A stretch of DNA of 60,187 nt, filler included, from Perkinsus olseni (lineage: Eukaryota): the NCBI GenBank assembly GCA_013115125.1. It is 6 parts of 6 records of this genome, joined end to end, with 100 filler letters (N's around TTAATTAATTAA, not from the genome) between each part and the next. Parts side by side here need not be neighbours in the genome. Positions count along the whole stretch, not along the records: positions 10,166 to 20,217 come from JABANN010000900.1; 5 more parts are not named here. One strand, given 5' to 3'. Below are positions 10,166 to 20,217 of the stretch, one piece after another (positions within the stretch are counted from its first letter, which is position 1; the number at the start of each line of letters is the position of its first letter). The notes under the pieces are model-generated. The model was not told the origin of the DNA. It was given only the letters and a program-made list of their open reading frames with translations, and did not search any database. A program made the translations under genes and the position numbers.

Positions 10166-11083
10166 TAAGCTTAGTCTCTCGAGGGGAATAAGCTATGCAC
10201 GCATGCACAAGACGATCGGCGCACAATGAGTAACACTTGTTCCTCCGAGCAGAGAAGTATGAGATGTTGAGATGAAAAAGGAGAGAAGTAAAGAGTGATG
10301 AGGGACCCCCCCCCCTCCGTAGTAAGGCGTTGTTCCGGATCCATTGAGATAGCTTGAGACATACGTTGTGGTCCAGACAGTATATATCACATATGCGACG
10401 TTGGTGTTAAAGTAGGCAGTAGTAGAGGTAGAGTTGTAGTTGGGTAGACTGTTAGTGAGGGTTGAAGGTTAAGGGTTAGGGGTTGAAGCTCGTCAGGCGG
10501 TGTATGAGTAGCCGTTTTCAAGCTTGATGAGGTGATTGTGTGAAGTGAGTTCACTAAATTGTCCTTCAGAGAGGGCGTTGAGATGAGTAGATTGTCCTTC
10601 AGAGATAGGGTAGATAGAGGTAGTGGAGGTGGTAGGTCCAAGTAGGGTGGTTGGTGGTGTAAGCATCAGTTGTTGCTGTGGGTAGTTTGGTGTAGTCAGA
10701 GATGTTGACGTCGGTGATTTAGTCGAGGTCGTCGAAGGTGTAGACTTGTAAGTAGTTTAGAGGGCTTGTTGGAGTCTTAGTAGGGTCGCTGTGTGTCTGG
10801 GGTCCAGTTGTTGTCATTGGTGATGTCCTCGTTGTGGAGGTAGTCGAAGTTTGGGCGTTCCAGATATTTGATGAGCTCCTCGAGAGGCGTAGGTGAGGTT
10901 GTAGAGGTCTCAGGAGGTTCACGTGCGGTCTGGGCACCAGCTGTTGCTTCTCCGTTGTTGCTCATAATCAACGCAAGGCGAGAAAGATGGTAAAGTCTTC
11001 TACTTCCTGCTTCTAAGCTTAGCCTCTCGAGGGGAATAAGCTATGCACGCATGCACAAGACGATCGGCGCACAATGAGTAGCA
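10166..11083 (-). mobile_element. TRIM-like miniature LTR retroelement; 3' LTR truncated by the contig end
   Basis: Near-identical direct repeats at 10166-10235 and 11014-11083 begin TG(T/C)TACTCATTGTG on the minus strand. Purine-rich GGAGGAACAAG precedes the downstream copy. The 5' repeat may end ...TTTACCA at 10988. The ~750-bp interior has only short low-complexity ORFs. Confidence 0.6.
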
Positions 11084-11246
11084 GTCACCCGAGTGTTGAA
11101 AGTGTACTAACGGCCCTGGAAACCCGAATAGAAATAGCTCTGGGCTCCAGAGTCTGGAGAAAAGGTGGTACAATGGAGGAAATTGCGATAAAGGGGTTAA
11201 AACTGTCGCAGAAGGAAGAGAATTGTGGTGAAAAAGAGAATATAGG

Positions 11247-11367
11247 AAAAAAGCCCTTCCCGGGGTTCGAACCTGGGGATCATGTGTCGAGCTCCTGTTT
11301 TTCATTGCGAACTTCTCCTCTTCCAACGTTAAGGCTGGTAGAAGTCGGCCAAGACCTAGTGGAGAGC
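11247..11367 (-). ncRNA. tRNA-related Pol III-like element, copy A
   Basis: Minus strand: B-box GGTTCGAACCCC followed by AAGGGC and T6. Diverged paralog at 11766-11893. Confidence 0.3.
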
Positions 11368-11432
11368 TTACCGTAACTTCCATGAACCCAAACCCCATGA
11401 AAAGTGCTGCCCGCTCTGTAAAACGCTCACCC

Positions 11433-11527
11433 GCCTTGGATTTTGGTCGAAAGCCTTGGATTTCGGTCAGATGCCTTGGATATCGGTCAGGTGCCTTGGA
11501 TTTTGGTCAGGTGCCTTGGATTTTGGG
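11433..11527. repeat. Minisatellite, ~5 x 20 bp (GCCTTGGATTTTGGTCAGGT)
   Basis: Units start at 11433, 11453, 11473, 11493 and 11513. Confidence 0.9.
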
Positions 11528-11765
11528 AATTGCCCGAATCTAAGACGCTGTCCCCGGAGACATCGCAGGGCGAGCGAAAACGATGCCATGTCTTTTGGCC
11601 TTAGCGCGTTTCGGCGACCAGCGCGTTGCATTTCCTGATACCGACTTCTCTTCCGGTAGCCGTCCTGCTAAGATGATTTACAGGATTCTCCCGTTTCGAG
11701 GATCTCAAAGAAGTCGAGCTTTTTCACGCCCGTTGGCCGACACAGAAATGACAGATGCTCCCGAG

Positions 11766-11893
11766 AAAAAAGCCCTTGTCGGGATTCGAACCCGGAATCT
11801 TGCGCCGAGCTCGTCTTTCTCAGCACGGACTCTTCCCCTTTTACGTTAAGGTTAGTAGAAGTTAGAAGAGTTAACCAAGACTTAGCGGAGTGC
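11766..11893 (-). ncRNA. tRNA-related Pol III-like element, copy B
   Basis: Minus strand: GGGTTCGAATCCC B-box followed by AAGGGC and T6. Shares CCTTAACGT, GAGCTCG and TCTTGG blocks with copy A. Confidence 0.3.
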
Positions 11894-11945
11894 TGGCCTT
11901 TACCCTTTTCAGTTCCTTCTACTGTCCTGCAGGAAGCCACCGCGG

Positions 11946-12034
11946 GTCTGCATAGCCGTCGATGCCTCTACCACGGGATGGGGGGCCACGTGAGTGGCAC
12001 CGACAACGACATGGCCGACGCATTGAGCAGGCTG
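11946..12034 (+). pseudogene. Internally deleted relic of a retroelement RNase H domain
   Basis: VCIAVDASTTGWGA is directly followed, in another frame, by HVSGTDNDMADALSRL: the first and last conserved motifs of gypsy/DIRS-type RNase H. Confidence 0.55.
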
Positions 12035-12336
12035 ACCGAGGGGAGGGAGGTCCCGCAAGCTCTGAGTTCAGCATCAGAGGCTTTCGCCCGGCGCGAGATG
12101 AGAGATTCTGGGCCGAGGCCTAGTCATCCCTGGCGGTAGGTCATCCAGGGTGGTTTCAGTCTAAAGTGAATGGCTGGATATACGTCTCGGGCTAGATAGC
12201 CTCTTGGTGTGGGCGCGAACTTGCTTTCCCAAAAGCTTAATTGTACGCCGTAGGCGCTGTTTCGCGCTCCGGGGGTTTGGGCCCCCCCGGGCGAGCGCGA
12301 AGAGCACTCCTAATTCCCCGCAAGTTCCCAGAACCT

Positions 12337-14999
12337 TGTAAGGAATCTCCCTATCTCCGCTCCGTTGTCTGTATATTGCGCCGACGCCCATAGCGTGATC
12401 GATACCCTGCATTATAGCCTATAAGTAGATCCTAAGCGCAGCACATCAACATTTACGCCCCTGTCGCGTTGCTAGTATGGACGGAACCCTAACAGCTGGT
12501 GGAGAACCCGTTGGCCTTGGACCCTACGGTACACTTCTCGCAATCCTCAAGCTCAAGGACGTCTCTGACTTGGAGTTCGTCAGCGTCAAGGATATTGAGA
12601 AAGCTCTCCCTGATAACGCTACACTGCAACACAAAGTAGATTGCCTTCGCCTCCTTAAAGAGGCTAAAGAGGCTCGTCATCGCCCTTCTTCGGTCTACTC
12701 GTCGGAGTCGACTACACCATCCATTCTAGCATCTGCTATCACAACCAGCACTTCTGAAGATGCCAAATCTTTGGCAGGAGTTCTACGCCTTCAACCACCA
12801 GACGGAAAGGTGTGGCAAGGCACTTCTGATAAACGTCCTGCTACAGCCTTCCTCTATAGAGTGGCCGAGTCAGCTCGACTAGCAGCACTTAGCGAGATGG
12901 ACACTTGGAGGTACCTAACCGCCGTCTGCTTGCAGCAAAGCCAAGCCCGGGAGCTTGACAACTATCTCTCTAAGAACACCGCATCTGATGCTACAATTCT
13001 GGACCGTCTCCAGTCAGCAGAGCTTTGGTTCAACAATCGTTGGTCTATCACCAACAACGTTGACAAGATCTATATCCAGCTCCGAGATATCAATCATATC
13101 AGCTTCATCAACGTTGAAGCCCTGCATGATATCATCGTGGACTTACAGCAGCATGCGCGCTATCTAAACCACGAAATACCCCTAACAGCACTACGCCGAG
13201 CCTTTTTAGATGGACTTCCCGACTGGCTGCGACAACCACTTCTTCAAGTACACCCACAAGCCACTACTCCCTTACATGTTATGGTAGATTGGTTTACGTC
13301 GTATGAAGAGTCAAGCAGTCGTAAACTTACAAGCGAAAGTGTTCCCGCCGAGCACTCACCGACGATGATATGTCGCTTGAACATTCAAGGACGATGTACC
13401 TATGGCACACGGTGCAGATTCATACACACGACATCATCCTCTGCTACCCCGACACCTTTAGCCGGCTTCCCCACTGCACCCCCACAACAAGCACATGATG
13501 AGGTTAACTTCCCTCTACAAGCTGCAGTCATACCTTCGACGGTACAGCCCATCGCAGGTGAACGTCAACGTCGAGTCTCTCCTGCTGATGCCGATCCTGT
13601 AGTGAAGAAGATCTGCACTAGGCCTTACCAAGCACCACTATACCTTACTAGAGAAGCCCTTGGACAATCTTGTCGTGAGCGAGATGAGCTGCTGCTGAAA
13701 GGTATCATCGTTCAGGACCCTACCGGTCTTGCTCGCCTAGCTGGTACCCAGCGTCTTTATGTACCATCACCGCTTCAGCCTCTATTGCTACAGAGATATC
13801 ATGACTACTATGCTCATCCAGGCAAGAAACCTCTCTATGACTTGGCTTCTCGTCATTGGTGGTTCCCGCGAATGTCTAAGGTCTGCAATAAATATCCGTG
13901 TCTATGTATCCTATGCAAGTCGTATCATAACCGGAAGCTCTTTGGACATCTCCCACAACCACATAAACCTCTCTCTTACCTTGCTATCGACCTTACTGGT
14001 CCCTATACTAACATTAAGCACCCATATGCCGTTACAATATCGGATATGTATACTTGTCTACGAATTTACCCTACGAAACATCCAACTACAGATAGTATTT
14101 GCAAAGAACTTTAAGACTGGAGGATGTCATATGGCCTATATCCTGAACTATTAATGCATGATGATGACAAGGCCTTCTCTACTCGTTTCACCCAGTGGTG
14201 TGCCGACAGATGTATCCAAGAGGCACGCATTGCTATCTATTGTCCGGAGTCCAATTCCGCTACAAAAAGACCACACCGTACCTTTCATGATGGTATAAGG
14301 TCCTGCCTCTATTTATCCGATAATAAGGACTGGGTTCAACATGCTGACTCTGTGGTGTATCGTATGAATGCTACTAAGAACTCCACAACTGGTCAATCAC
14401 CATACTCTATGCTGCTCAACATCATTCCCCGCTGTCCCTTCTTTGATGATACTGTGTATACTGATGGCTCATCTTTCCCTGCTGATCATATTTGCCTATT
14501 TCCGGCTGGCACGGTCGTTGCTCGCAGGGTCGAGCAACCTTTGAAATTAGAACCACGATATGAAGGCTCTTATGAAGTACTGTCCGAAATCCGTCCTAGT
14601 ACGTTCCGTATCCGAAGACTGGGCTCTACTTCGCCTCCTATCGACGTCAAGCAAGATCGTCTGAAAGCTTACTCAATATCTCAACTTATTCAGCATTTCT
14701 GATATCAGTCTCATTTTGCTTTGCTACGACTCATTGCTACCAGCATTATTCATACCAGCTAGCTACTACCAATATTTGCTTCTCACTTTTATTTTTTGCT
14801 GCATCTGCAAGGCTGTTGTTGGCTTTAGGGGAGGGGGGACGTGTAAGGAATCTCCCTATCTCCGCTCCGTTGTCTGTATATTGCGCCGACGCCCATAGCG
14901 TGATCGATACCCTGCATTATAGCCTATAAGTAGATCCTAAGCGCAGCACATCAACATTTACGCCCCTGTCGCGTTGCTAGTATGGACGGAACCCTAACA
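12337..14999 (+). mobile_element. Non-autonomous LTR retrotransposon encoding Gag-integrase only (2663 bp)
   Basis: Identical 158-bp TG...CA LTRs at 12337-12494 and 14842-14999. 5-bp TSD AACCT at 12332-12336 and 15000-15004. PBS-like TGGTGGAGAA at 12497-12506 (tRNA-Ala-like). PPT AGGGGAGGGGGGA at 14827-14839. Confidence 0.93.
12477..14702 (+). pseudogene. Gag (with CCCH zinc finger)-integrase fusion ORF, one in-frame TAA at 14112-14114
   Basis: Capsid-like region, then CRLNIQGRCTYGTRCRFIH, then integrase: YHDYYAHPG...CILC, AIDLTGP, HDDDKAF, ESNSATKRPHRT, GPY/F-like LEPRYEGSYEV. ORF 14124-14702 is in the same frame as 12477-14114. No protease, RT or RNase H motifs. Confidence 0.85.
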
Positions 15000-15004
15000 A
15001 ACCT

Positions 15005-18000
15005 TTGGTATGTTAGGCAAGTGAAATTTGGAAATTTTGTTCGTCGTTGATCATGTTCAATTCGAGATGTACAACAGCTACGAAGCTGAGATTCATACAG
15101 CAGGTAGAGGTTGAGAGGCGGATGCTACAGAAGTTCGTCGGGTGGCCGATAGCTACTTGGCTATGGAGTTATTAGCGGATAAGTGATCATGCGCAGGGCA
15201 TGCGTACAGCCTCGAATGTGCATGCGTGGGCACATGCGTTCAGGTTTCAAAACGCGCTGGCATATTATGAAGTCCCGATGCAGTCGATGACGGTACATAC
15301 GACGCTGGCACAATCGCAGTGCAGGTCGTCAGGCTGTGTCATGAGAGTTGTGCTGGCTAGCTCATTCCGTGAGAACATATTGCGTTGGATGGTCATGGGC
15401 TCACTCAGGGCATGCGTGCAACCACTCGGGGCATGCGTGCAACCGCTCCGCATCACGGAGTGGAAACTTGTCAAAGAGGCCAATGTGGGTTACCGAAGCT
15501 GATCTCCGGTCCCCTCGGCCGCAGAGCGAGTGCCTAATCGCTCCCAGCAGTACGAGAGTCGTTCAAACTCGATGTGTGGATCATCAACAGTGGATGGATC
15601 ACAAATGTTGGAATGTGAGATGATTGGAATTGATCGGGTTAAACCCGATCAGTGACGATTATCTGGTCTGCTACCTCCCCCTATAGTTAACATCGTGGAT
15701 CGATCTTCAACGCAGTCTATCGTGGAACATTTTATACGTACACGCAAACAAGAGGCCGGGAGAGGGGCCATGACCCACAGCTCACAGAACCATGCCTCGA
15801 GAGGTGACAACAAGTTCCGAGGAGCGTTACTCAAAGGAAGACCGACCGGTTCGTATCGGATGAGGATCACACTGGTTGCTTCGCGATTCCCGCTATATGA
15901 CGGCCCAGGTGTCTGTATCTCGAGTCGAGAGTCGTACTGGAGGTAGAAAAATGCCTCACCGTGCGTAGTCTCGTCTCTCAGAGGATTAGCGTAGCTCTCC
16001 TCTCGCATGTTCCGCGAAGAAGCGGTACCAACCTGAACCACATATCCTGATCTAGCCATGTGGCTTCGACTTTCCGCTGTGCGCATTTCTGAAGACCCGT
16101 CAGGGCGTGAGTTACTAAGTCAGACCTCGGAGGTCGCTGCTAATCAGCCCCAACAGCAGACTCCGAGATAGGGCCCGACCGGGGTACCCATGCAGTGGGT
16201 CGGTCGGGCTGCTCAAGAGGCATCGCCCATGAGCCTCTAGCTTCTCCGTGGACCCTTTGGTGGTAAAGATTGTGCCTAAGGCCCTATGACTCTGTCTCCC
16301 TCAAAGGCAGTACGAGAGTCGGGGAATTTCTTCGACAAACGCGCATCCCCACAATCAGCTCTGTCAACCGTAAGGCGTGTAAAACGGTTTTTGTTAGTGC
16401 TTTCAAGAGCACTGTCTGAAATTCCTCGCTGGTACGGGAATGATGGTTAGTAAACTGCTGCGACCTCTTAAGTTACTTGAGCCAAGTACCGCAAAACTTC
16501 CTACTCCCAGTCTCATCACCGGTTGGCCTTGCCTGGCAGAAAGGTGAGATTTTCATATACAAATCACGGGTCTAGGTGCAGGCGCGAACTTTCTTTGCCA
16601 AAAGCTTAATTGCACGCCGAAGGCGCCCTTTCGCGCTCCGGGGGTTGGGGCCCCCGGGCGAGCGCGAAAGTCACCCCACGGACCCTGCAAGACCCATAGA
16701 CTAGTTGTAGCAAATCGTGATTCGTGGTGTCATGTTACTTTATTCTTAGCGCGCAGCAGGTATGAGGCTGAAAATCGGGCAGTAGGTATGGGAGAAGTTA
16801 CCGGTTCTGTTCATTACCCCCAGCTAACTATTAGCGCTCTGGCTATGAAGTTATAAGCGATTACGGATCCTGCGCTGTCATGCGTTCTCTAGCGTTGGGC
16901 ATGCGTTTGGACATGCGTATGAGCATGCGTGCGTTCTCCGAAACGCGCTGGCTTAGTATGAACCCCCGTCATACTCAATGGTGGTACCTACGCCGTTGGT
17001 GCATTCGCACTCCGGATCGTCGAGCAGTCCCATTGGGGTTGGGATCGTCAGCTTGCTCTGTGAGAACATATTGCGTTGAATGGCCACTCTCCCCATCGGG
17101 GCATGCGTGCAACGGCTCCGCATCACGGAACCATAACTTGTCTAAGAGACCCATATGAGTTACCGATGACAATTTTGGGTGCCCGTGGCTACTGAGTGAG
17201 AGCCTAATGGCTCTCAGTAGGACAAGAGTCCTTCAAACTCCATGTGTGGGGAAATCGCTAAGGTTGAAATGCGAGATAGTGACTATCCGATAGTCCGTTG
17301 AGATAAGTTTGCCCTAACGCGATCGGATTACGAGTACAGGGCGGGCTATCCCCCCCGTAGTTGTTACAGACTGTGTCGATTGTTGACGCAGCCGCTCGTC
17401 GAACATCTCAAGCACCCACAAACAGGGCGAGGGCGCTAGGAGAAGAGCCGTGATCCACGACTTCGAGGGGTGACAGTAAGTTTCGAAGGGTGGTATGCAG
17501 CAAGGCCCGTACCTGAGGAATGAGTAAACGGTTCATTTCTGGCGACGATCACACTGACCGCTCTGCAGAGTCTGCGAGATCAGCACCTATACAGTATATC
17601 GAGTCAAGAACCGTACTGGAGCCAGAAAAATGATTAACCTTGCATAGTCTCCGCATAGAGAAGTTTAGCGCAGCTATATCTCCGCATGCTTCACGAGAAA
17701 GGGTTGTCGATCTGGACATATCCTGATGCAACCGATTAGCTTCGACTGTCCCTCGTGGGCTTTGCTGGAAACTCTTCTTTGGGGAGGTAACGACGTCCGA
17801 CCTCGGAGCTCGCTGCGAAGTAGTCTCAACACCAGACTCTCAGATAGGGCCCGATCGGGGTACCCACGCAGTGGGTTGATCGGGCCAATCAAAAAGCAAC
17901 TCTCATGAGCCTCCGGCTTCTCGGCGTACCGTTTGGTGATGGAGATCGTGTCTACGGCACTTTGACTCGATCTTCCCCGAATGCGGTGTGAGAGTCAGAA

Positions 18001-18310
18001 AATTTCTCCCCTAAACACGCGCCTATCAACCTCGAAACGTCTCAGACGTGGGAAGTGCCCTCTGTAAGAGCTTTCGCGAGCACCGTCCGAAATTCCTCGC
18101 TGGTATGGAAATGAAGTTTAGTATGCTTTGAACACCTCTCAAGTTACTACAGTCAAACGACGCGAAGCTTTCTCTTGCCACCGGTTCGCCTTACCATGGC
18201 AAAAGGTAAGGTTTTTTGATCCACATCGAGTGTCTCGCTGCAATCCTCTGGGTAGTGTAGTTTTCGTATTCCACGATGTAGTTTCCTTGCGAGCTCTGAT
18301 CGCGCTGTGA
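15005..18310. repeat. Diverged tandem ~1.65-kb non-coding unit (unit 1 ~12190-12336 plus 15005-16570; unit 2 ~16571-18231; partial third unit)
   Basis: Colinear homologous blocks: 12212-12301 vs 16581-16670, 15425-15580 vs 17095-17250, 16160-16550 vs 17835-18215. Stops occur in the frames inspected. Confidence 0.8.
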
Positions 18311-19096
18311 CCGTGGGTAGCTGCGCCGGATTGTGCGATGCCGCAGTGGCATTCTTTCAACGTTGAGGGTTCTTAAGTCTGCAAGTGCGCGGGCATTGTG
18401 TTTGCGTGCAGCTTGCTTTGCGCGTTGCGTGAGGTTTGAAGCTGTGCAACTGCTGTGGATTGTTGCAACTGTTGCAACTCGTTGGATTGTTGCGGTAGCT
18501 AGGTTTGCCTAAACCGTGGACCGCCACAGAGTTCCTGGTTCACTTACTGCACTGTTGAGGTTCGCAACTGACGTCTAGTTACTTGTAGATCCAATAGTTC
18601 AGACCTTGAGTTGATAGTAGTCATGGTTCTAGCGCGAAGTGGAGCATGTAGTGAGGCCGCTCATATATCAGAGGGTGTTCGCCGTTCTCCGAGACTTATT
18701 CACAAGTGCGCTGAGGATACGTCGCGCGTCAGTACAAGGCAGGGTCCGTCGGTTCGATCAACTAATACTTGGGGTTGTAAGGCTCGCGGTGTCAACGCAG
18801 TCGACCGTGGCAAGGGTTCGGTTGTGGTTACACCATCCACATTTTCCATTCCTTCGGGTAATAGTGCCGTCCCTACTCGCCCACGCGCTCATTCTACTGG
18901 GATCGATCCGACCTGTGATCGGGATTCTTTTGAGTGTCCTGGAACGGTACCTGTATGCGGTCCATGTGATGTATGTTAGAGGAATGTCTCATTGTGTCTA
19001 TCTCCCGATCTCAGTGTGCATGCGTGCACCCTTTAAGCTATGGTAACACTGGTTGGTTGTTGTGCGATCAGTATTGATGAGATTGGTATAAGTCAG

Positions 19097-19118
19097 TCCG
19101 TAGCCATCTTGGCTCAAG
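19097..19118 (+). other. Genomic copy of the Perkinsus/dinoflagellate-type spliced leader
   Basis: TCCGTAGCCATCTTGGCTCAAG is 21/22 identical to the Perkinsus SL ACCGTAGCCATCTTGGCTCAAG. It is followed by TT rather than a GT donor, so this is not an SL RNA gene. Confidence 0.92.
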
Positions 19119-19370
19119 TTCTGAACTGTTGGGTTCAGTCAATGTCTGACAACCCTCAAGGGAGCGGAACACCTGCCGTTAATATGGCGACAGCGGCATT
19201 TGGCAAAACTGCGCTCCCCGCCCTCGTCAGCCGCGTCGACCTTGCCCATCACATCCTCATCGTCGACAATTGCTTGATCGAATGTGGTCTCGCTACTCAT
19301 GATCCTGATGGGAAGGTATGCATCAAGCCCCAGAGCAAGTATGTGGCGATGTCTCGCATACTGACGAGCC

Positions 19371-20053
19371 GGGTGTATCACGACTCGTACACCGAAAACT
19401 CGTACACTTTCATTTCGTACACGACTCGTACACTGAATGCTCGTTCACCCCTTGGATCCGTACACATAAAACTCATACACGTAAAACCCATACACATAAA
19501 ACTCGTACATCGTCAGCTCGTACACGAGCACGACTCGTACACTATGCTGCTTGAGCCGCATTTTTGGGCCGCGCGCTGAGAGCAATGGCGGAGCGAAGGA
19601 AGTAAAATTGTCTATAGAGATCGAATTGTTTGCGCCACTCTGTTAGTAAATATTCAATAGTGTCAGTGGTATGGAGGTTAAGGTAACGGGTCATCAATCC
19701 AAAGGTCGCGGGTTCGATCCTATGTACAGGCTCGGCACGACAGGGAGGAGATAAATAGTCAAGTCGCGGCGGCGACTTTATGCAAGTCGCGGAGCGGCTC
19801 CGCGACTTGCCTAAAAATTTTTCGCAGGGTGTACGAAATGACGGTGTACGAGTTGAAAGTGGGTGTGTGTATGAAATGACGGTGTACGAGCATTATGTGT
19901 ACGAGTGTTTTGTGTACGGGTATTATGTGTACGAGTATTTTGCGTACGAGTTTTACATGTACGGGTATTTGGTGTACGAGTCGAAGATGTACGAGTTTTC
20001 GAGACATGAGTCGAAAATGTACGAGTTTTCGGTGTACGAGTCGTGAACATCCC
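19371..20053. mobile_element. Non-autonomous DNA transposon (MITE-like, 683 bp) with 8-bp TSD
   Basis: TSD GACGAGCC at 19363-19370 and 20054-20061. Termini GGG...CCC. TIR core TCACGACTCGTACACCGAAAACTCGTACA. Inverted arrays of ACTCGTACAC-like subterminal repeats. Excision restores the flanking reading frame. Confidence 0.92.
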
Positions 20054-20217
20054 GACGAGCCTGTCCAGCGTTAAGGAAGTTGCAGCCTCTGCTCAGCGTG
20101 CCGCGACTCGGTTCGACTACGACTGGACTGCGGTCAAGCGGCTACTTACCCGTCAGTATTGCAAGAAGGAGACTCTTAAGGCAGAATACTCGTCCCAGCT
20201 GACAAAGCTCAAGCTTA

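What the first reader, a model, noticed from the sequence alone, without database searches (positions are those of the whole stretch)
18974..19200. Probable LTR retroelement with the host spliced leader hard-coded in cis just before its gag-like ORF
Seen: TCCGTAGCCATCTTGGCTCAAG at 19097-19118 lies 23 nt upstream of the ATG at 19142, downstream of an LTR-like segment starting TGTTA at 18974. Candidate LTR ends are TAACA at 19048 or GTCA at 19095; the latter would place the SL where a PBS normally sits. A small CTGAAC/GTTCAG hairpin separates SL and ATG. Known: this is the 22-nt leader normally trans-spliced onto Perkinsus/dinoflagellate mRNAs, and relict SLs in DNA usually mark retroposed cDNAs. 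Inference: trans-splicing would strip R-U5-PBS from an LTR transcript, so an element carrying its own SL could be translated as an SL mimic while keeping its 5' end, or could use the SL region in priming or template switching. That would be an undescribed adaptation to a trans-splicing host. A one-off retrocopy is the alternative.
Basis: partly seen in the sequence, partly recalled or inferred. Interest (0 to 1): 0.8.

Follow-up and report, generated by a model that had tools for sequence, protein, structure and literature searches.

The report
Host spliced leader inside a retrotransposon
A highly expressed virus-like jumping gene of the clam parasite Perkinsus carries a perfect built-in copy of the short leader that the parasite normally splices onto its messenger RNAs, which may be how the element copes with a host that trims the front of its RNAs.

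Summary
TCCGTAGCCATCTTGGCTCAAG lies at 19097-19118, is unique in the window, and sits 23 nt before the ATG at 19142. It matches the published Perkinsus marinus leader at 21 of 22 bases.

The LTR-retroelement reading is supported. An RNA contig of 5641 nt runs from gag past the contig end and finishes with 18974-19003, which is the start of a 3' LTR. The ORF belongs to a capsid-plus-RRM gag family; some members also carry reverse transcriptase and integrase. RNA-library depth over the element is 10 to 1000 times that of the flank. The MITE in gag is real, and the empty site occurs in all three runs that gave laid contigs.

A one-off retrogene is refuted, because the SL is not the 5' edge of the repeated, transcribed unit.

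The repeat module most likely ends at 19184, not 19048 or 19095. That would put the SL and the gag ATG inside the LTR, with a tRNA-type PBS at 19185.

My inference is that the SL was captured from the element's own trans-spliced mRNA and now forms the 5' edge of R.

Not tested: whether 3' and solo LTRs or the P. marinus orthologue carry the SL, and where the RNA starts. No further genomic copy could be fetched.

The parts
18969..18973 (+). Candidate 5-bp target-site duplication (ATGTA) left of the 5' LTR
   Evidence: Read. Proposed by analogy with the neighbouring element's AACCT duplication. The 3' partner lies beyond the contig end, so this is untested.
18974..19184 (+). 5' LTR, favoured extent of 211 nt. 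Alternative 3' ends are 19048 and 19095.
   Evidence: Start: RNA-library depth jumps here. In X1 it goes from about 1e3 to 8e4-8.6e5. In X7 it goes from at most 6.7 to 398. X7 contigs start at 18974 or 18976, and the 5641-nt X7 contig ends with 18974-19003. End: X7 contig 19036-19184 stops at 19184 and the 5641-nt contig starts at 19155. X1 has 2 contigs that run on unlike the window after 19184. X2 DNA contig 19064-19183 also ends there.
19087..19092 (+). TATAAG motif 10 nt before the SL and 55 nt before the gag ATG
   Evidence: The neighbouring LTR has TATAAG 57 nt before its own ATG. Similarity between the two LTRs is not significant (local score 28 against shuffles 24.6 +/- 4.1). Any promoter role is inference.
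19095..19096 (+). AG dinucleotide directly before the SL (possible former trans-splice acceptor)
   Evidence: The same arrangement occurs in 3 of 46 unique environmental DNA copies of the SL, which is chance level. Weak evidence.
19097..19118 (+). Full-length Perkinsus-type spliced leader encoded in the DNA
   Evidence: No variant letter at a share of 10% or more in X1, X2 or X7. It is followed by TT, not GT, so it is not an SL RNA gene. Rfam gives no match.
19121..19138 (+). 6-bp inverted repeat CTGAAC / GTTCAG in the 23-nt leader
   Evidence: Folding of 19097-19215 is not better than shuffles (z = -1.05). In X2, all 4 contigs at 19126 read T instead of C, which would keep the pair as G-U.
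19142..19369 (+). gag ORF, codons 1-76, up to the MITE insertion
   Evidence: 99% identical to P0001 (P. olseni) and 83% to P0002 (P. marinus PMAR001811, 358 aa).
19185..19196 (+). Candidate primer-binding site TGGCGACAGCGG, inside gag codons 15-19
   Evidence: It follows the module end at 19184 directly. Its complement would give a GC-rich acceptor stem ending in CCA. No tRNA gene is present in the window to test this. Inference.
19363..19370 (+). Left copy of the 8-bp MITE target duplication (GACGAGCC)
19371..20053 (.). 683-bp MITE with terminal inverted repeats, internal 15-nt repeats and a tRNA-like core
   Evidence: The empty-site joint 19362->20054 (skips 691 nt) is seen in X1, X2 and X7. 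P0001 reads straight across the site.
20054..20061 (+). Right copy of the MITE target duplication
20061..20217 (+). gag ORF continued (codon 77 onward) to the contig end

Best explanation
Shown. The 22-mer is a complete copy of the Perkinsus spliced leader. It is built into the 5' region of an expressed, roughly 6-kb, Ty3-like LTR retrotransposon, most likely of Perkinsus olseni. The window's copy is cut off by the contig end and broken by a MITE. Nearly identical copies without the MITE are the ones abundant in RNA libraries.

Favoured anatomy, partly shown. The LTR runs from 18974 to 19184. The SL occupies LTR positions 124-145. The 23-nt leader and the gag ATG (19142) also lie in the LTR. 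A tRNA-type primer-binding site (19185) lies just inside gag.

Inferred mechanism. With this layout, trans-splicing just upstream of gag does not remove the PBS, so an SL-headed element mRNA can still prime reverse transcription. One such RNA was copied into DNA, and that put the SL into the LTR. Since then the SL has marked the 5' edge of R. An RNA can gain the SL at its 5' end in two ways: transcription may start there, or a host SL may be trans-spliced onto the AG that ends the cis copy, which gives the same sequence. Either way the RNA meets the same 22 nt in its 3' LTR. Minus-strand strong-stop DNA can therefore transfer, and the same RNA looks like an ordinary SL-headed mRNA for gag translation.
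For: The SL is real and of the Perkinsus type.

LTR element:
- X7 contig of 5641 nt covers 19155-19362, then 20054-20217, then about 5.2 kb more, then 18974-19003.
- X7 contig 19036-19184 is exact at depth 113, while the flank is at most 6.7.
- X1 depth is 8e4-8.6e5 over the element, 585-1405 over 18492-18939, and 0.6-159 over the MITE.

gag identity:
- 67 relatives at E <= 1e-3.
- Of the 42 scanned with Pfam, P0030 has Integrase_H2C2 (45.9 bits, above cut-off) and RVT_1 (26.6 bits, below cut-off). P0023 has a weak RVT_1 match.
- P0025 is named as integrase-domain-containing by its source.
- P0005 from P. olseni continues past the P. marinus stop, colinear with the relative P0011.
- The AF2 model has pLDDT 88.8. 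The top structural match is the Copia capsid (Z 8.9, 172 residues aligned), followed by PEG10 and Ty1 CA C-terminal domains. Residues 268-356 match RRM domains.

Module end at 19184: contigs of X1, X7 and X2 all break there. TGG follows directly.

Precedent for the layout: the neighbouring LTR element, whose two LTRs are 100% identical, has its gag ATG 18 nt before the LTR end and TGGTGGAGAACC 2 nt after it.

SL followed by a 23-nt leader and then ATG is the form of a mature trans-spliced 5' end. The SL is followed by TT, not an intron.
Against: - The LTR's 3' end is not proven. 19048 gives the best terminal inverted repeat (TGTTA...TAACA) and is followed by C plus TGGTTGG. No 3' LTR-flank junction was seen.
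- DNA depth falls in steps (about 350-590 at 19007-19035, 185 at 19126, 15-77 in gag). That fits neither model cleanly.
- No RNA 5' end was mapped. Contigs cannot show starts, and the raw-read run gave 0 reads.
- TATAAG only 10 nt before the SL argues against initiation at the SL's first base.
- Conservation of the SL is not informative. The copies seen differ by about 2%, so about 0.4 changes are expected in 22 nt.
- The AG before the SL occurs at chance frequency (3 of 46).
- No second family with an SL in its LTR was found. None of 176 SL-bearing loci from other collections holds a relative of this gag or of its pol-bearing relatives.
- The P. marinus orthologue's DNA could not be read.
Confidence: 0.4

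Rival explanations
1. Neutral scar. The element is as described, and the SL entered it once, by copying of or recombination with a trans-spliced element mRNA. It has no role, and it is intact only because the copies are young.
For: The copies seen differ by only about 2% (11 listed variant positions between 19007 and 20183), so an unchanged 22-mer is expected by chance about 64% of the time. The leader shows no significant structure. No other family showing the feature was found. Relict SLs in DNA are common and mostly functionless marks of retroposition (passages of PMC3229502; abstract of PMC6050394).
Against: The gag has a P. marinus counterpart at 83% identity, so the lineage is not very young. 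The SL sits exactly where a functional mRNA 5' end would be. The SL-bearing copies are the ones that dominate RNA libraries from two studies. None of this is decisive.
Confidence: 0.3
2. The LTR ends at 19095 or 19048, and the SL lies outside it, at or just after the primer-binding position. There it would serve in priming or template switching, or as an internal mimic of the leader.
For: The TG...CA ends fit: TGTTA/TAACA at 19048 and GTCA at 19095. 19048 is followed by C plus TGG. DNA depth is highest over 19004-19067.
Against: X7 contig 19036-19184 crosses both 19048 and 19095 without a break. All three runs break at 19183/19184. DNA depth at 19126 (185, 4 contigs) is still several times that of gag (15-77). 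The SL is sense-strand leader sequence and is not complementary to any usual primer. The PBS candidate at 19050 would imply an A/C-only acceptor stem starting with U. An LTR of 75 nt would be unusually short (recalled, not tested).
Confidence: 0.2
3. Ordinary retrogene. A processed cDNA of a trans-spliced cellular or gag mRNA was inserted once, with the SL marking its 5' end.
For: An SL followed by a short leader and an ATG is the usual form of a relict SL. The gag homologues P0002, P0003 and P0070 are annotated as stand-alone proteins of about 350 aa.
Against: The transcribed, repeated unit starts 123 nt upstream of the SL at 18974. The same sequence recurs after about 5.2 kb of internal sequence. 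P0005 runs on beyond the end of gag.
Confidence: 0.03
4. A fragment of an SL RNA gene, or a chance match.
For: None beyond the presence of the 22-mer.
Against: No match in 100 shuffles. The exon is followed by TT, not the GT intron. Rfam gives no match over 10166-20217.
Confidence: 0.01

Closest known systems
Relict spliced leaders of retroposed genes in dinoflagellates (mRNA recycling model; passages of PMC3229502 seen, abstracts of PMC6050394 and PMC5585692)
   Same: A host SL encoded in DNA directly upstream of an ORF. It is best explained by reverse transcription of a trans-spliced mRNA.
   Different: There the SL marks the 5' edge of an inserted cDNA of a cellular gene, and it is often truncated at its internal AG and stacked in tandem. 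Here the SL is full-length and single. It lies 123 nt inside an LTR-bounded retrotransposon, and the upstream sequence belongs to the same repeated, transcribed unit.
DinoSL at the 5' end of transcripts of a Symbiodinium +ssRNA virus, proposed as 'molecular mimicry' (discussion passage of PMC9651163 citing Levin et al. 2017; the primary paper was not read)
   Same: A selfish genetic element of an SL-trans-splicing alveolate carries the host leader in its own genome, which may make its RNA look native to the translation machinery.
   Different: That is an RNA virus of a dinoflagellate with the SL at the genome's 5' end. Here it is a chromosomal LTR retrotransposon of a perkinsid, where the SL could also serve reverse transcription by providing terminal redundancy.
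Cer1, a Ty3/gypsy element of C. elegans (passages of PMC3315495)
   Same: An LTR retrotransposon in a host that trans-splices. It shows the same conflict between SL addition and keeping a full-length replicative RNA.
   Different: In Cer1 the 8-kb gag-pol RNA is simply not trans-spliced, and only a 2.4-kb spliced RNA carries SL1. Those passages report no SL encoded in the element.
Ty3/gypsy-type LTR retrotransposons in general
   Same: Short LTR starting with TG, gag with a two-domain capsid fold, relatives with RT and an H2C2 integrase, and about 5.6 kb of internal sequence.
   Different: gag ends in an RRM-like domain instead of a zinc knuckle. No Pfam gag model matches. The gag start probably lies inside the LTR, and the host SL is embedded.
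SLACS/CZAR/CRE-type non-LTR retrotransposons that insert into SL RNA genes of trypanosomatids (recalled from memory, checked by no call)
   Same: A physical link between a retroelement and the host's spliced-leader sequence.
   Different: Those elements sit inside SL RNA genes as insertion targets. Here an SL exon alone sits inside the element.

Membership tests
LTR retrotransposon (Ty3/gypsy-like) | Two direct long terminal repeats flanking the internal region | tested here: met
   The 5' LTR start is at 18974. The X7 RNA contig of 5641 nt ends with 18974-19003 (1 other letter) after the internal sequence, on the same strand. Only the first 30 nt of the 3' copy were seen.
LTR retrotransposon (Ty3/gypsy-like) | Target-site duplication flanking the element | not testable with these tools
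   The contig ends at 20217 and no genome is held. The candidate left copy is ATGTA at 18969-18973.
LTR retrotransposon (Ty3/gypsy-like) | Primer-binding site next to the 5' LTR | tested here: inconclusive
   There are three candidates: TGGTTGG at 19050, the SL at 19097, and TGGCGACAGCGG at 19185. No tRNA gene is present in the window.
LTR retrotransposon (Ty3/gypsy-like) | gag with a retroelement capsid fold | tested here: met
   VIA-align matches: Copia capsid Z 8.9 (rmsd 5.2, 172 aligned, model residues 22-241), PEG10 CA C-terminal domain Z 8.3, Ty1 Gag CA C-terminal domain Z 7.5. These Z values are modest for a helical fold. The case is backed by sequence relatives fused to RT and IN. Pfam gag models do not match.
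LTR retrotransposon (Ty3/gypsy-like) | pol with protease, reverse transcriptase/RNase H and integrase in this element | tested here: inconclusive
   About 5.2 kb of unseen internal sequence follows gag. P0005 reads on past the end of gag, colinear with P0011. RT and IN were seen only in remote relatives, P0030 and P0023.
Retrogene with relict SL | The SL is the 5' boundary of the inserted copy, and the upstream DNA is unrelated to it | tested here: not met
   The transcribed, repeated unit starts at 18974, which is 123 nt upstream of the SL.
SL RNA gene | SL exon followed by a GT donor and intron | tested here: not met
   The SL is followed by TTCTGAAC and, 23 nt later, an ATG. Rfam gives no match.
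MITE (non-autonomous DNA transposon) | Terminal inverted repeats, a target duplication, no coding capacity, and an empty site in other copies | tested here: met
   TIRs and the 8-bp duplication GACGAGCC. The joint 19362->20054 is present in X1, X2 and X7. P0001 reads across the site.

The most novel reading that the evidence does not exclude
The retrotransposon has turned the host's spliced leader into its R region. Its replicative RNA receives the SL at the 5' end from the host's trans-splicing machinery and carries the same 22 nt encoded in its 3' LTR. Minus-strand transfer would then depend on the host's SL, and every new copy would be 'proof-read' against the host's SL RNA. This would be an LTR element whose replication cycle is built around SL trans-splicing rather than being harmed by it.
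Probability: 0.2. Interest if true: 0.85.

Novelty: new variant of a known kind. Interest (0 to 1): 0.62.

Why it matters
SL trans-splicing removes the 5' end of a transcript, and that 5' end is exactly what an LTR element needs (R, U5 and usually the PBS). How LTR elements thrive in hosts that trans-splice has hardly been addressed. In the one case I read about (Cer1, passages) the genomic RNA simply escapes trans-splicing.

An element with the host leader built into its LTR, a gag start inside the LTR and a PBS inside gag would be a different, structural solution. It would also link the retroelement to the origin of SL-tagged retrogenes in alveolates.

Four literature searches found no description of a spliced leader inside an LTR retrotransposon. 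A fifth, on Perkinsus LTR retrotransposons, found none either. The library lacks most subscription journals.

On the practical side, Perkinsus can be transfected (stated in the abstract of PMC2868825). The element is abundant in RNA libraries, so its short LTR is a candidate strong promoter or leader for that system.

Tried and rejected
- No whole genome is held for the window.
- ARAGORN found no tRNA in the window. Rfam found nothing in 10166-20217.
- Pfam found nothing for the two ORF pieces, P0001 or P0002.
- Protein searches with the ORF read through the SL (from 19040 or 19037 to 19369) found only P0001 at near lengths and nothing at shorter lengths. No cross-species view of the SL came from that route.
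- Collections scanned for further copies:
  - IMG/VR with the SL pattern gave 119 loci, all of the dinoflagellate type.
  - JGI metagenomes with the Perkinsus SL gave 57 loci, and 0 of 57 hold a gag relative.
  - Across all 176 loci, 0 hold a relative of the gag family or of its pol-bearing members.
With A3 it found none in viral contigs and none in prokaryote genomes.
  - The SL pattern has 0 hits in prokaryote genomes.
- Raw-read run X24 laid 0 of 11,053,536 reads, so it is no test.
- Adapter-joined contig ends at 19096, 19113, 19119 and 20107 in X1 were considered as RNA ends. I rejected them: they are single contigs at very high depth, and 97 further loose ends were not shown.
- Our LTR against the neighbouring LTR is not significant.
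- The neighbouring gag against the A2 profile shows no homology (probability 0.5%).
- The RNA fold of the leader is not significant.
- No other LTR copy is in the window.
- The bacterial promoter/terminator scan is irrelevant for a eukaryote.
- Foldseek against PDB gave only weak RRM rows.
- The motif M-[A/V]-T-A at the proposed PBS looked conserved by eye in the paralogues, but MAFFT aligns it differently, so it is not used.
Full report
THE OBSERVATION

The 22-mer TCCGTAGCCATCTTGGCTCAAG is at 19097-19118 on the + strand. It is the only match in the window at up to 3 mismatches, with none in 100 shuffles. The ATG at 19142 lies 23 nt downstream. The CTGAAC/GTTCAG inverted repeat (19121-19126 and 19133-19138), the TGTTA at 18974, the TAACA ending at 19048 and the GTCA ending at 19095 are all as described.

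The published P. marinus leader PmaSL1 is ACCGTAGCCATCTTGGCTCAAG (passages of PMC3101222 and PMC9399869). The window matches 21 of 22 bases, including the TCTT core that separates Perkinsus from dinoflagellates. A first-base T is the commonest form among environmental DNA copies of this leader: 33 of 46 unique sites in 57 metagenome loci.

THE WINDOW

The window is six contigs of about 10 kb joined by N spacers. The finding lies in the second contig (10166-20217), which ends inside the ORF. No genome is held for the window.

The N-terminal 76 codons are 99% identical to a partial P. olseni protein (P0001) and 83% identical to P. marinus PMAR001811 (P0002, 358 aa). The contig is therefore most likely from P. 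olseni.

THE ORF AND THE MITE

The insert at 19371-20053 has terminal inverted repeats and an 8-bp duplication, GACGAGCC. Removing the insert and one copy of the duplication restores the frame. P0001 reads straight across the site. The empty-site joint 19362->20054 is present in contigs of X1, X2 and X7.

IS THE ORF GAG?

Pfam finds nothing in the ORF pieces, P0001 or P0002.

An exhaustive HMMER search with P0002 found 67 proteins at E <= 1e-3, 15 at <= 1e-10 and 4 at <= 1e-30. The close ones are stand-alone proteins of about 350 aa from P. marinus and P. olseni (P0003, P0070). The remote ones (about 20-33% identity) are mostly 450-500 aa.

I scanned 42 of the 67 with Pfam:
- P0030 (1624 aa) has Integrase_H2C2 at 45.9 bits (cut-off 25.5) and RVT_1 at 26.6 bits (below the 29.6 cut-off).
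- P0023 (P. olseni, 1023 aa) has a weak RVT_1 match.
- P0025 (P. chesapeaki) is named as integrase-domain-containing by its source.

A partial P. olseni protein, P0005, matches the C-terminus of P0002 and then continues for 67 residues. Part of that extension aligns colinearly with the longer relative P0011: 40% identity over 40 aa, pairwise E = 5e-4.

An AlphaFold model of P0002 built on 32 family members has mean pLDDT 88.8. Foldseek found only RRM-like rows for residues about 268-356, with best E = 7e-3. The wide VIA-align search gave these matches:
- Copia capsid first: Z 8.9, rmsd 5.2, 172 aligned, model residues 22-241.
- PEG10 CA-like C-terminal domain: Z 8.3.
- A Ty1 Gag CA C-terminal domain: Z 7.5.
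- A second Copia capsid entry: Z 7.3.
- Many RRMs for residues 268-356, up to Z 8.8.

The tool warns that such Z values are modest for helical folds. Taken together with the RT- and IN-fused relatives, I accept the ORF as a gag: a two-domain capsid followed by an RRM-like domain where a zinc knuckle would usually sit.

IS IT AN LTR ELEMENT?

The one read-laying run used X1 (labelled RNA by guess), X2 (DNA by guess), X7 (a metatranscriptome) and X24 (raw RNA reads; 0 of about 11 million reads laid, so no test) on 18300-20217.

Summed contig depth by region:

| Run | Flank | Element | MITE |
|---|---|---|---|
| X7 | 0 over 18300-18555; at most 6.7 over 18556-18939 | 398 down to 53 from 18940 on | 0 |
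| X1 | 585-1405 over 18492-18939 | 8e4 to 8.6e5 | 0.6-159 |
| X2 | 312-852 | gag 23-76 | not compared |

Summed contig depth is a poor measure, so I use it only qualitatively. The element is far more abundant in RNA libraries than its flank, and gag is low-copy in DNA.

X7 contigs begin at 18974 or 18976. One X7 contig of 5641 nt covers 19155-19362, skips the MITE, covers 20054-20217, runs on for about 5.2 kb beyond the contig end, and finishes with 18974-19003 on the same strand. The sequence that starts at 18974 therefore recurs downstream of an internal region long enough for pol. That is the start of a 3' LTR. Tandem or circular forms would look the same, and those are retroelement forms too.

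A one-off retrogene is thereby excluded. The SL is not the 5' edge of the repeated, transcribed unit.

Another X7 contig, 19036-19184, is an exact match at depth 113. It shows LTR sequence, SL, leader and the start of gag on one molecule in an RNA library.

The abundant variant differs from the window copy at 11 listed positions. One of them is 19257, which gives the His of P0001. No run shows any variant letter inside the SL.

WHERE DOES THE LTR END?

There are three candidates.

- 19048. This gives the best inverted ends (TGTTA...TAACA) and is followed by C plus TGGTTGG. The LTR would be only 75 nt.
- 19095. This ends in CA and would place the SL at the PBS position.
- 19184. This is where the assembly graphs of all three runs break. 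The X7 contig 19036-19184 ends there. The 5641-nt contig begins 30 nt earlier, which is what a branch at 19185 produces. X1 has two contigs that continue for about 255 nt with sequence unlike the window. The X2 DNA contig 19064-19183 also ends there.

The X7 contig crosses 19048 and 19095 without a break. DNA depth at 19126 (185, 4 contigs) is still several times that of gag (15-77), though lower than at 19007-19035 (about 350-590). The depth data are untidy.

Directly after 19184 comes TGGCGACAGCGG. Its complement would be a GC-rich acceptor stem ending in CCA. The window holds no tRNA gene to test this.

The neighbouring element on the same contig (12337-14999) has two 158-nt LTRs that are 100% identical, an AACCT duplication and a purine tract before the 3' LTR. 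Its gag ATG is 18 nt before the LTR end, and TGGTGGAGAACC follows 2 nt after it. The layout 'ATG in the LTR, PBS in gag' therefore exists in this genome. The two families are not detectably related, either in LTR or in gag.

I put about 0.55 on 19184, 0.3 on 19048 and 0.1 on 19095.

HOW IT MOST LIKELY WORKS

Shown:
- A complete host SL is encoded in the element, between its 5' start and gag.
- It is followed by a 23-nt leader and the ATG, which is the form of a mature trans-spliced 5' end.
- It is followed by TT rather than an intron, so it came from a spliced mRNA and not from an SL RNA gene.

Inferred:
- If the PBS lies downstream of the ATG, an element RNA that is trans-spliced just upstream of gag keeps its PBS. 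It can still be reverse-transcribed.
- Copying such an RNA, with a rare transfer that kept the leader, would place the SL in the LTR.
- From then on, an RNA with the SL at its 5' end has the same 22 nt in its 3' LTR. It could gain that 5' SL by starting there, or by trans-splicing onto the AG that ends the cis copy, which gives an identical sequence. The SL is then the 5' edge of R, and minus-strand transfer is restored. The same RNA is also an ordinary SL-headed mRNA.

Against this:
- No RNA 5' end is mapped.
- TATAAG lies only 10 nt before the SL, which is an odd distance for initiation at the SL.
- The AG before the SL occurs at chance frequency (3 of 46).
- With about 2% divergence between the copies seen, an unchanged 22-mer is uninformative.

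The main rival is a neutral scar of the same capture event.

COMPARISON WITH WHAT IS KNOWN

Relict SLs mark retroposed cellular genes in dinoflagellates. A DinoSL at the 5' end of a Symbiodinium RNA virus has been proposed as molecular mimicry (discussion passage of PMC9651163). In C. elegans the full-length Cer1 RNA simply escapes SL1 trans-splicing (passages).

Searches for a spliced leader together with LTR retrotransposons, primer binding sites, strand transfer, DinoSL or Perkinsus turned up no description of an SL inside an LTR element. The library lacks most subscription journals. P. marinus is reported to hold more than 350 putative retrovirus polyproteins and virus-like particles (passage of PMC2868825).

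WHAT COULD NOT BE DONE

No further genomic copy, 3' LTR, solo LTR or P. marinus locus could be read. None of 176 SL-bearing loci from viral and metagenome collections holds a relative of this gag or of its pol-bearing relatives. Searches by protein alignment and by pattern in viral and prokaryote collections found nothing.

VERDICT

The LTR-retroelement reading is supported and the retrogene alternative is refuted. The PBS placement is probably wrong, because the SL more likely lies inside the LTR. A functional role for the SL is plausible but unproven.

This is a new variant of a known kind, of real interest to people who work on retroelements and trans-splicing.

Noticed in passing
window 12337-14999: A second, unrelated LTR element. 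It has two 158-nt LTRs that are 100% identical (12337-12494 and 14842-14999), a 5-bp duplication AACCT, and a purine tract before the 3' LTR. Its gag has a CCCH finger and runs straight into an integrase H2C2 region with no RT, so it is a young, internally deleted copy. Its gag ATG (12477) lies inside the LTR, and a PBS-like TGGTGGAGAACC starts 2 nt after the LTR.
   Followed up: partly
L001-L119 (IMG/VR contigs, mostly giant-virus bins): The dinoflagellate-type leader is encoded in DNA at 149 sites in 119 loci. The first base is A in 127 of 132 unique sites with enough upstream sequence to score. Many sites are directly preceded by the same AT-rich motif (tttttatttttaaatataaatttta) and followed by ORF-like sequence. 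This looks like a promoter plus hard-coded SL in front of many genes of viral or misbinned protist contigs. One literature search found no paper describing it.
   Followed up: partly
L120-L176 (metagenome contigs): The Perkinsus-type leader (TCTT core) is encoded in DNA in 57 environmental contigs. The first base is T in 33 of 46 unique sites. Only 3 are followed by GT, so few are candidate SL RNA genes. The variant is therefore widespread outside cultured Perkinsus, mostly as relict copies.
   Followed up: partly
window 19371-20053: The MITE carries arrays of a 15-nt unit (GTACGAG-type) in both arms and a tRNA-like core near 19660-19730. Its copies are numerous and varied in the DNA run X2, with bin depths up to about 2400.
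   Followed up: partly
window 15221-18180: Two tandem copies of a unit of about 1.67 kb at 70-79% identity lie just upstream of the element. The flank 18300-18939 also shows repeat-level depth in the DNA run.
   Followed up: no
window 10166-10173 and 20210-20217: The contig holding the finding starts and ends with the same 8-base palindrome, TAAGCTTA. It has 8 AAGCTT sites, against 1-4 in the other five contigs. This is possibly an assembly artefact at the contig ends.
   Followed up: no
window 19184/19185 (seen in run X1): Two RNA-library contigs share the element up to 19184 and then continue for about 255 nt with unrelated sequence. They could be 3' flanks of other copies, or a non-autonomous relative that uses the same LTR.
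   Followed up: no
P0002 residues 268-356: This gag family ends in an RRM-like domain where LTR-element gags usually have zinc knuckles. The model has high confidence, and RRM structures match at Z up to 8.8.
   Followed up: partly
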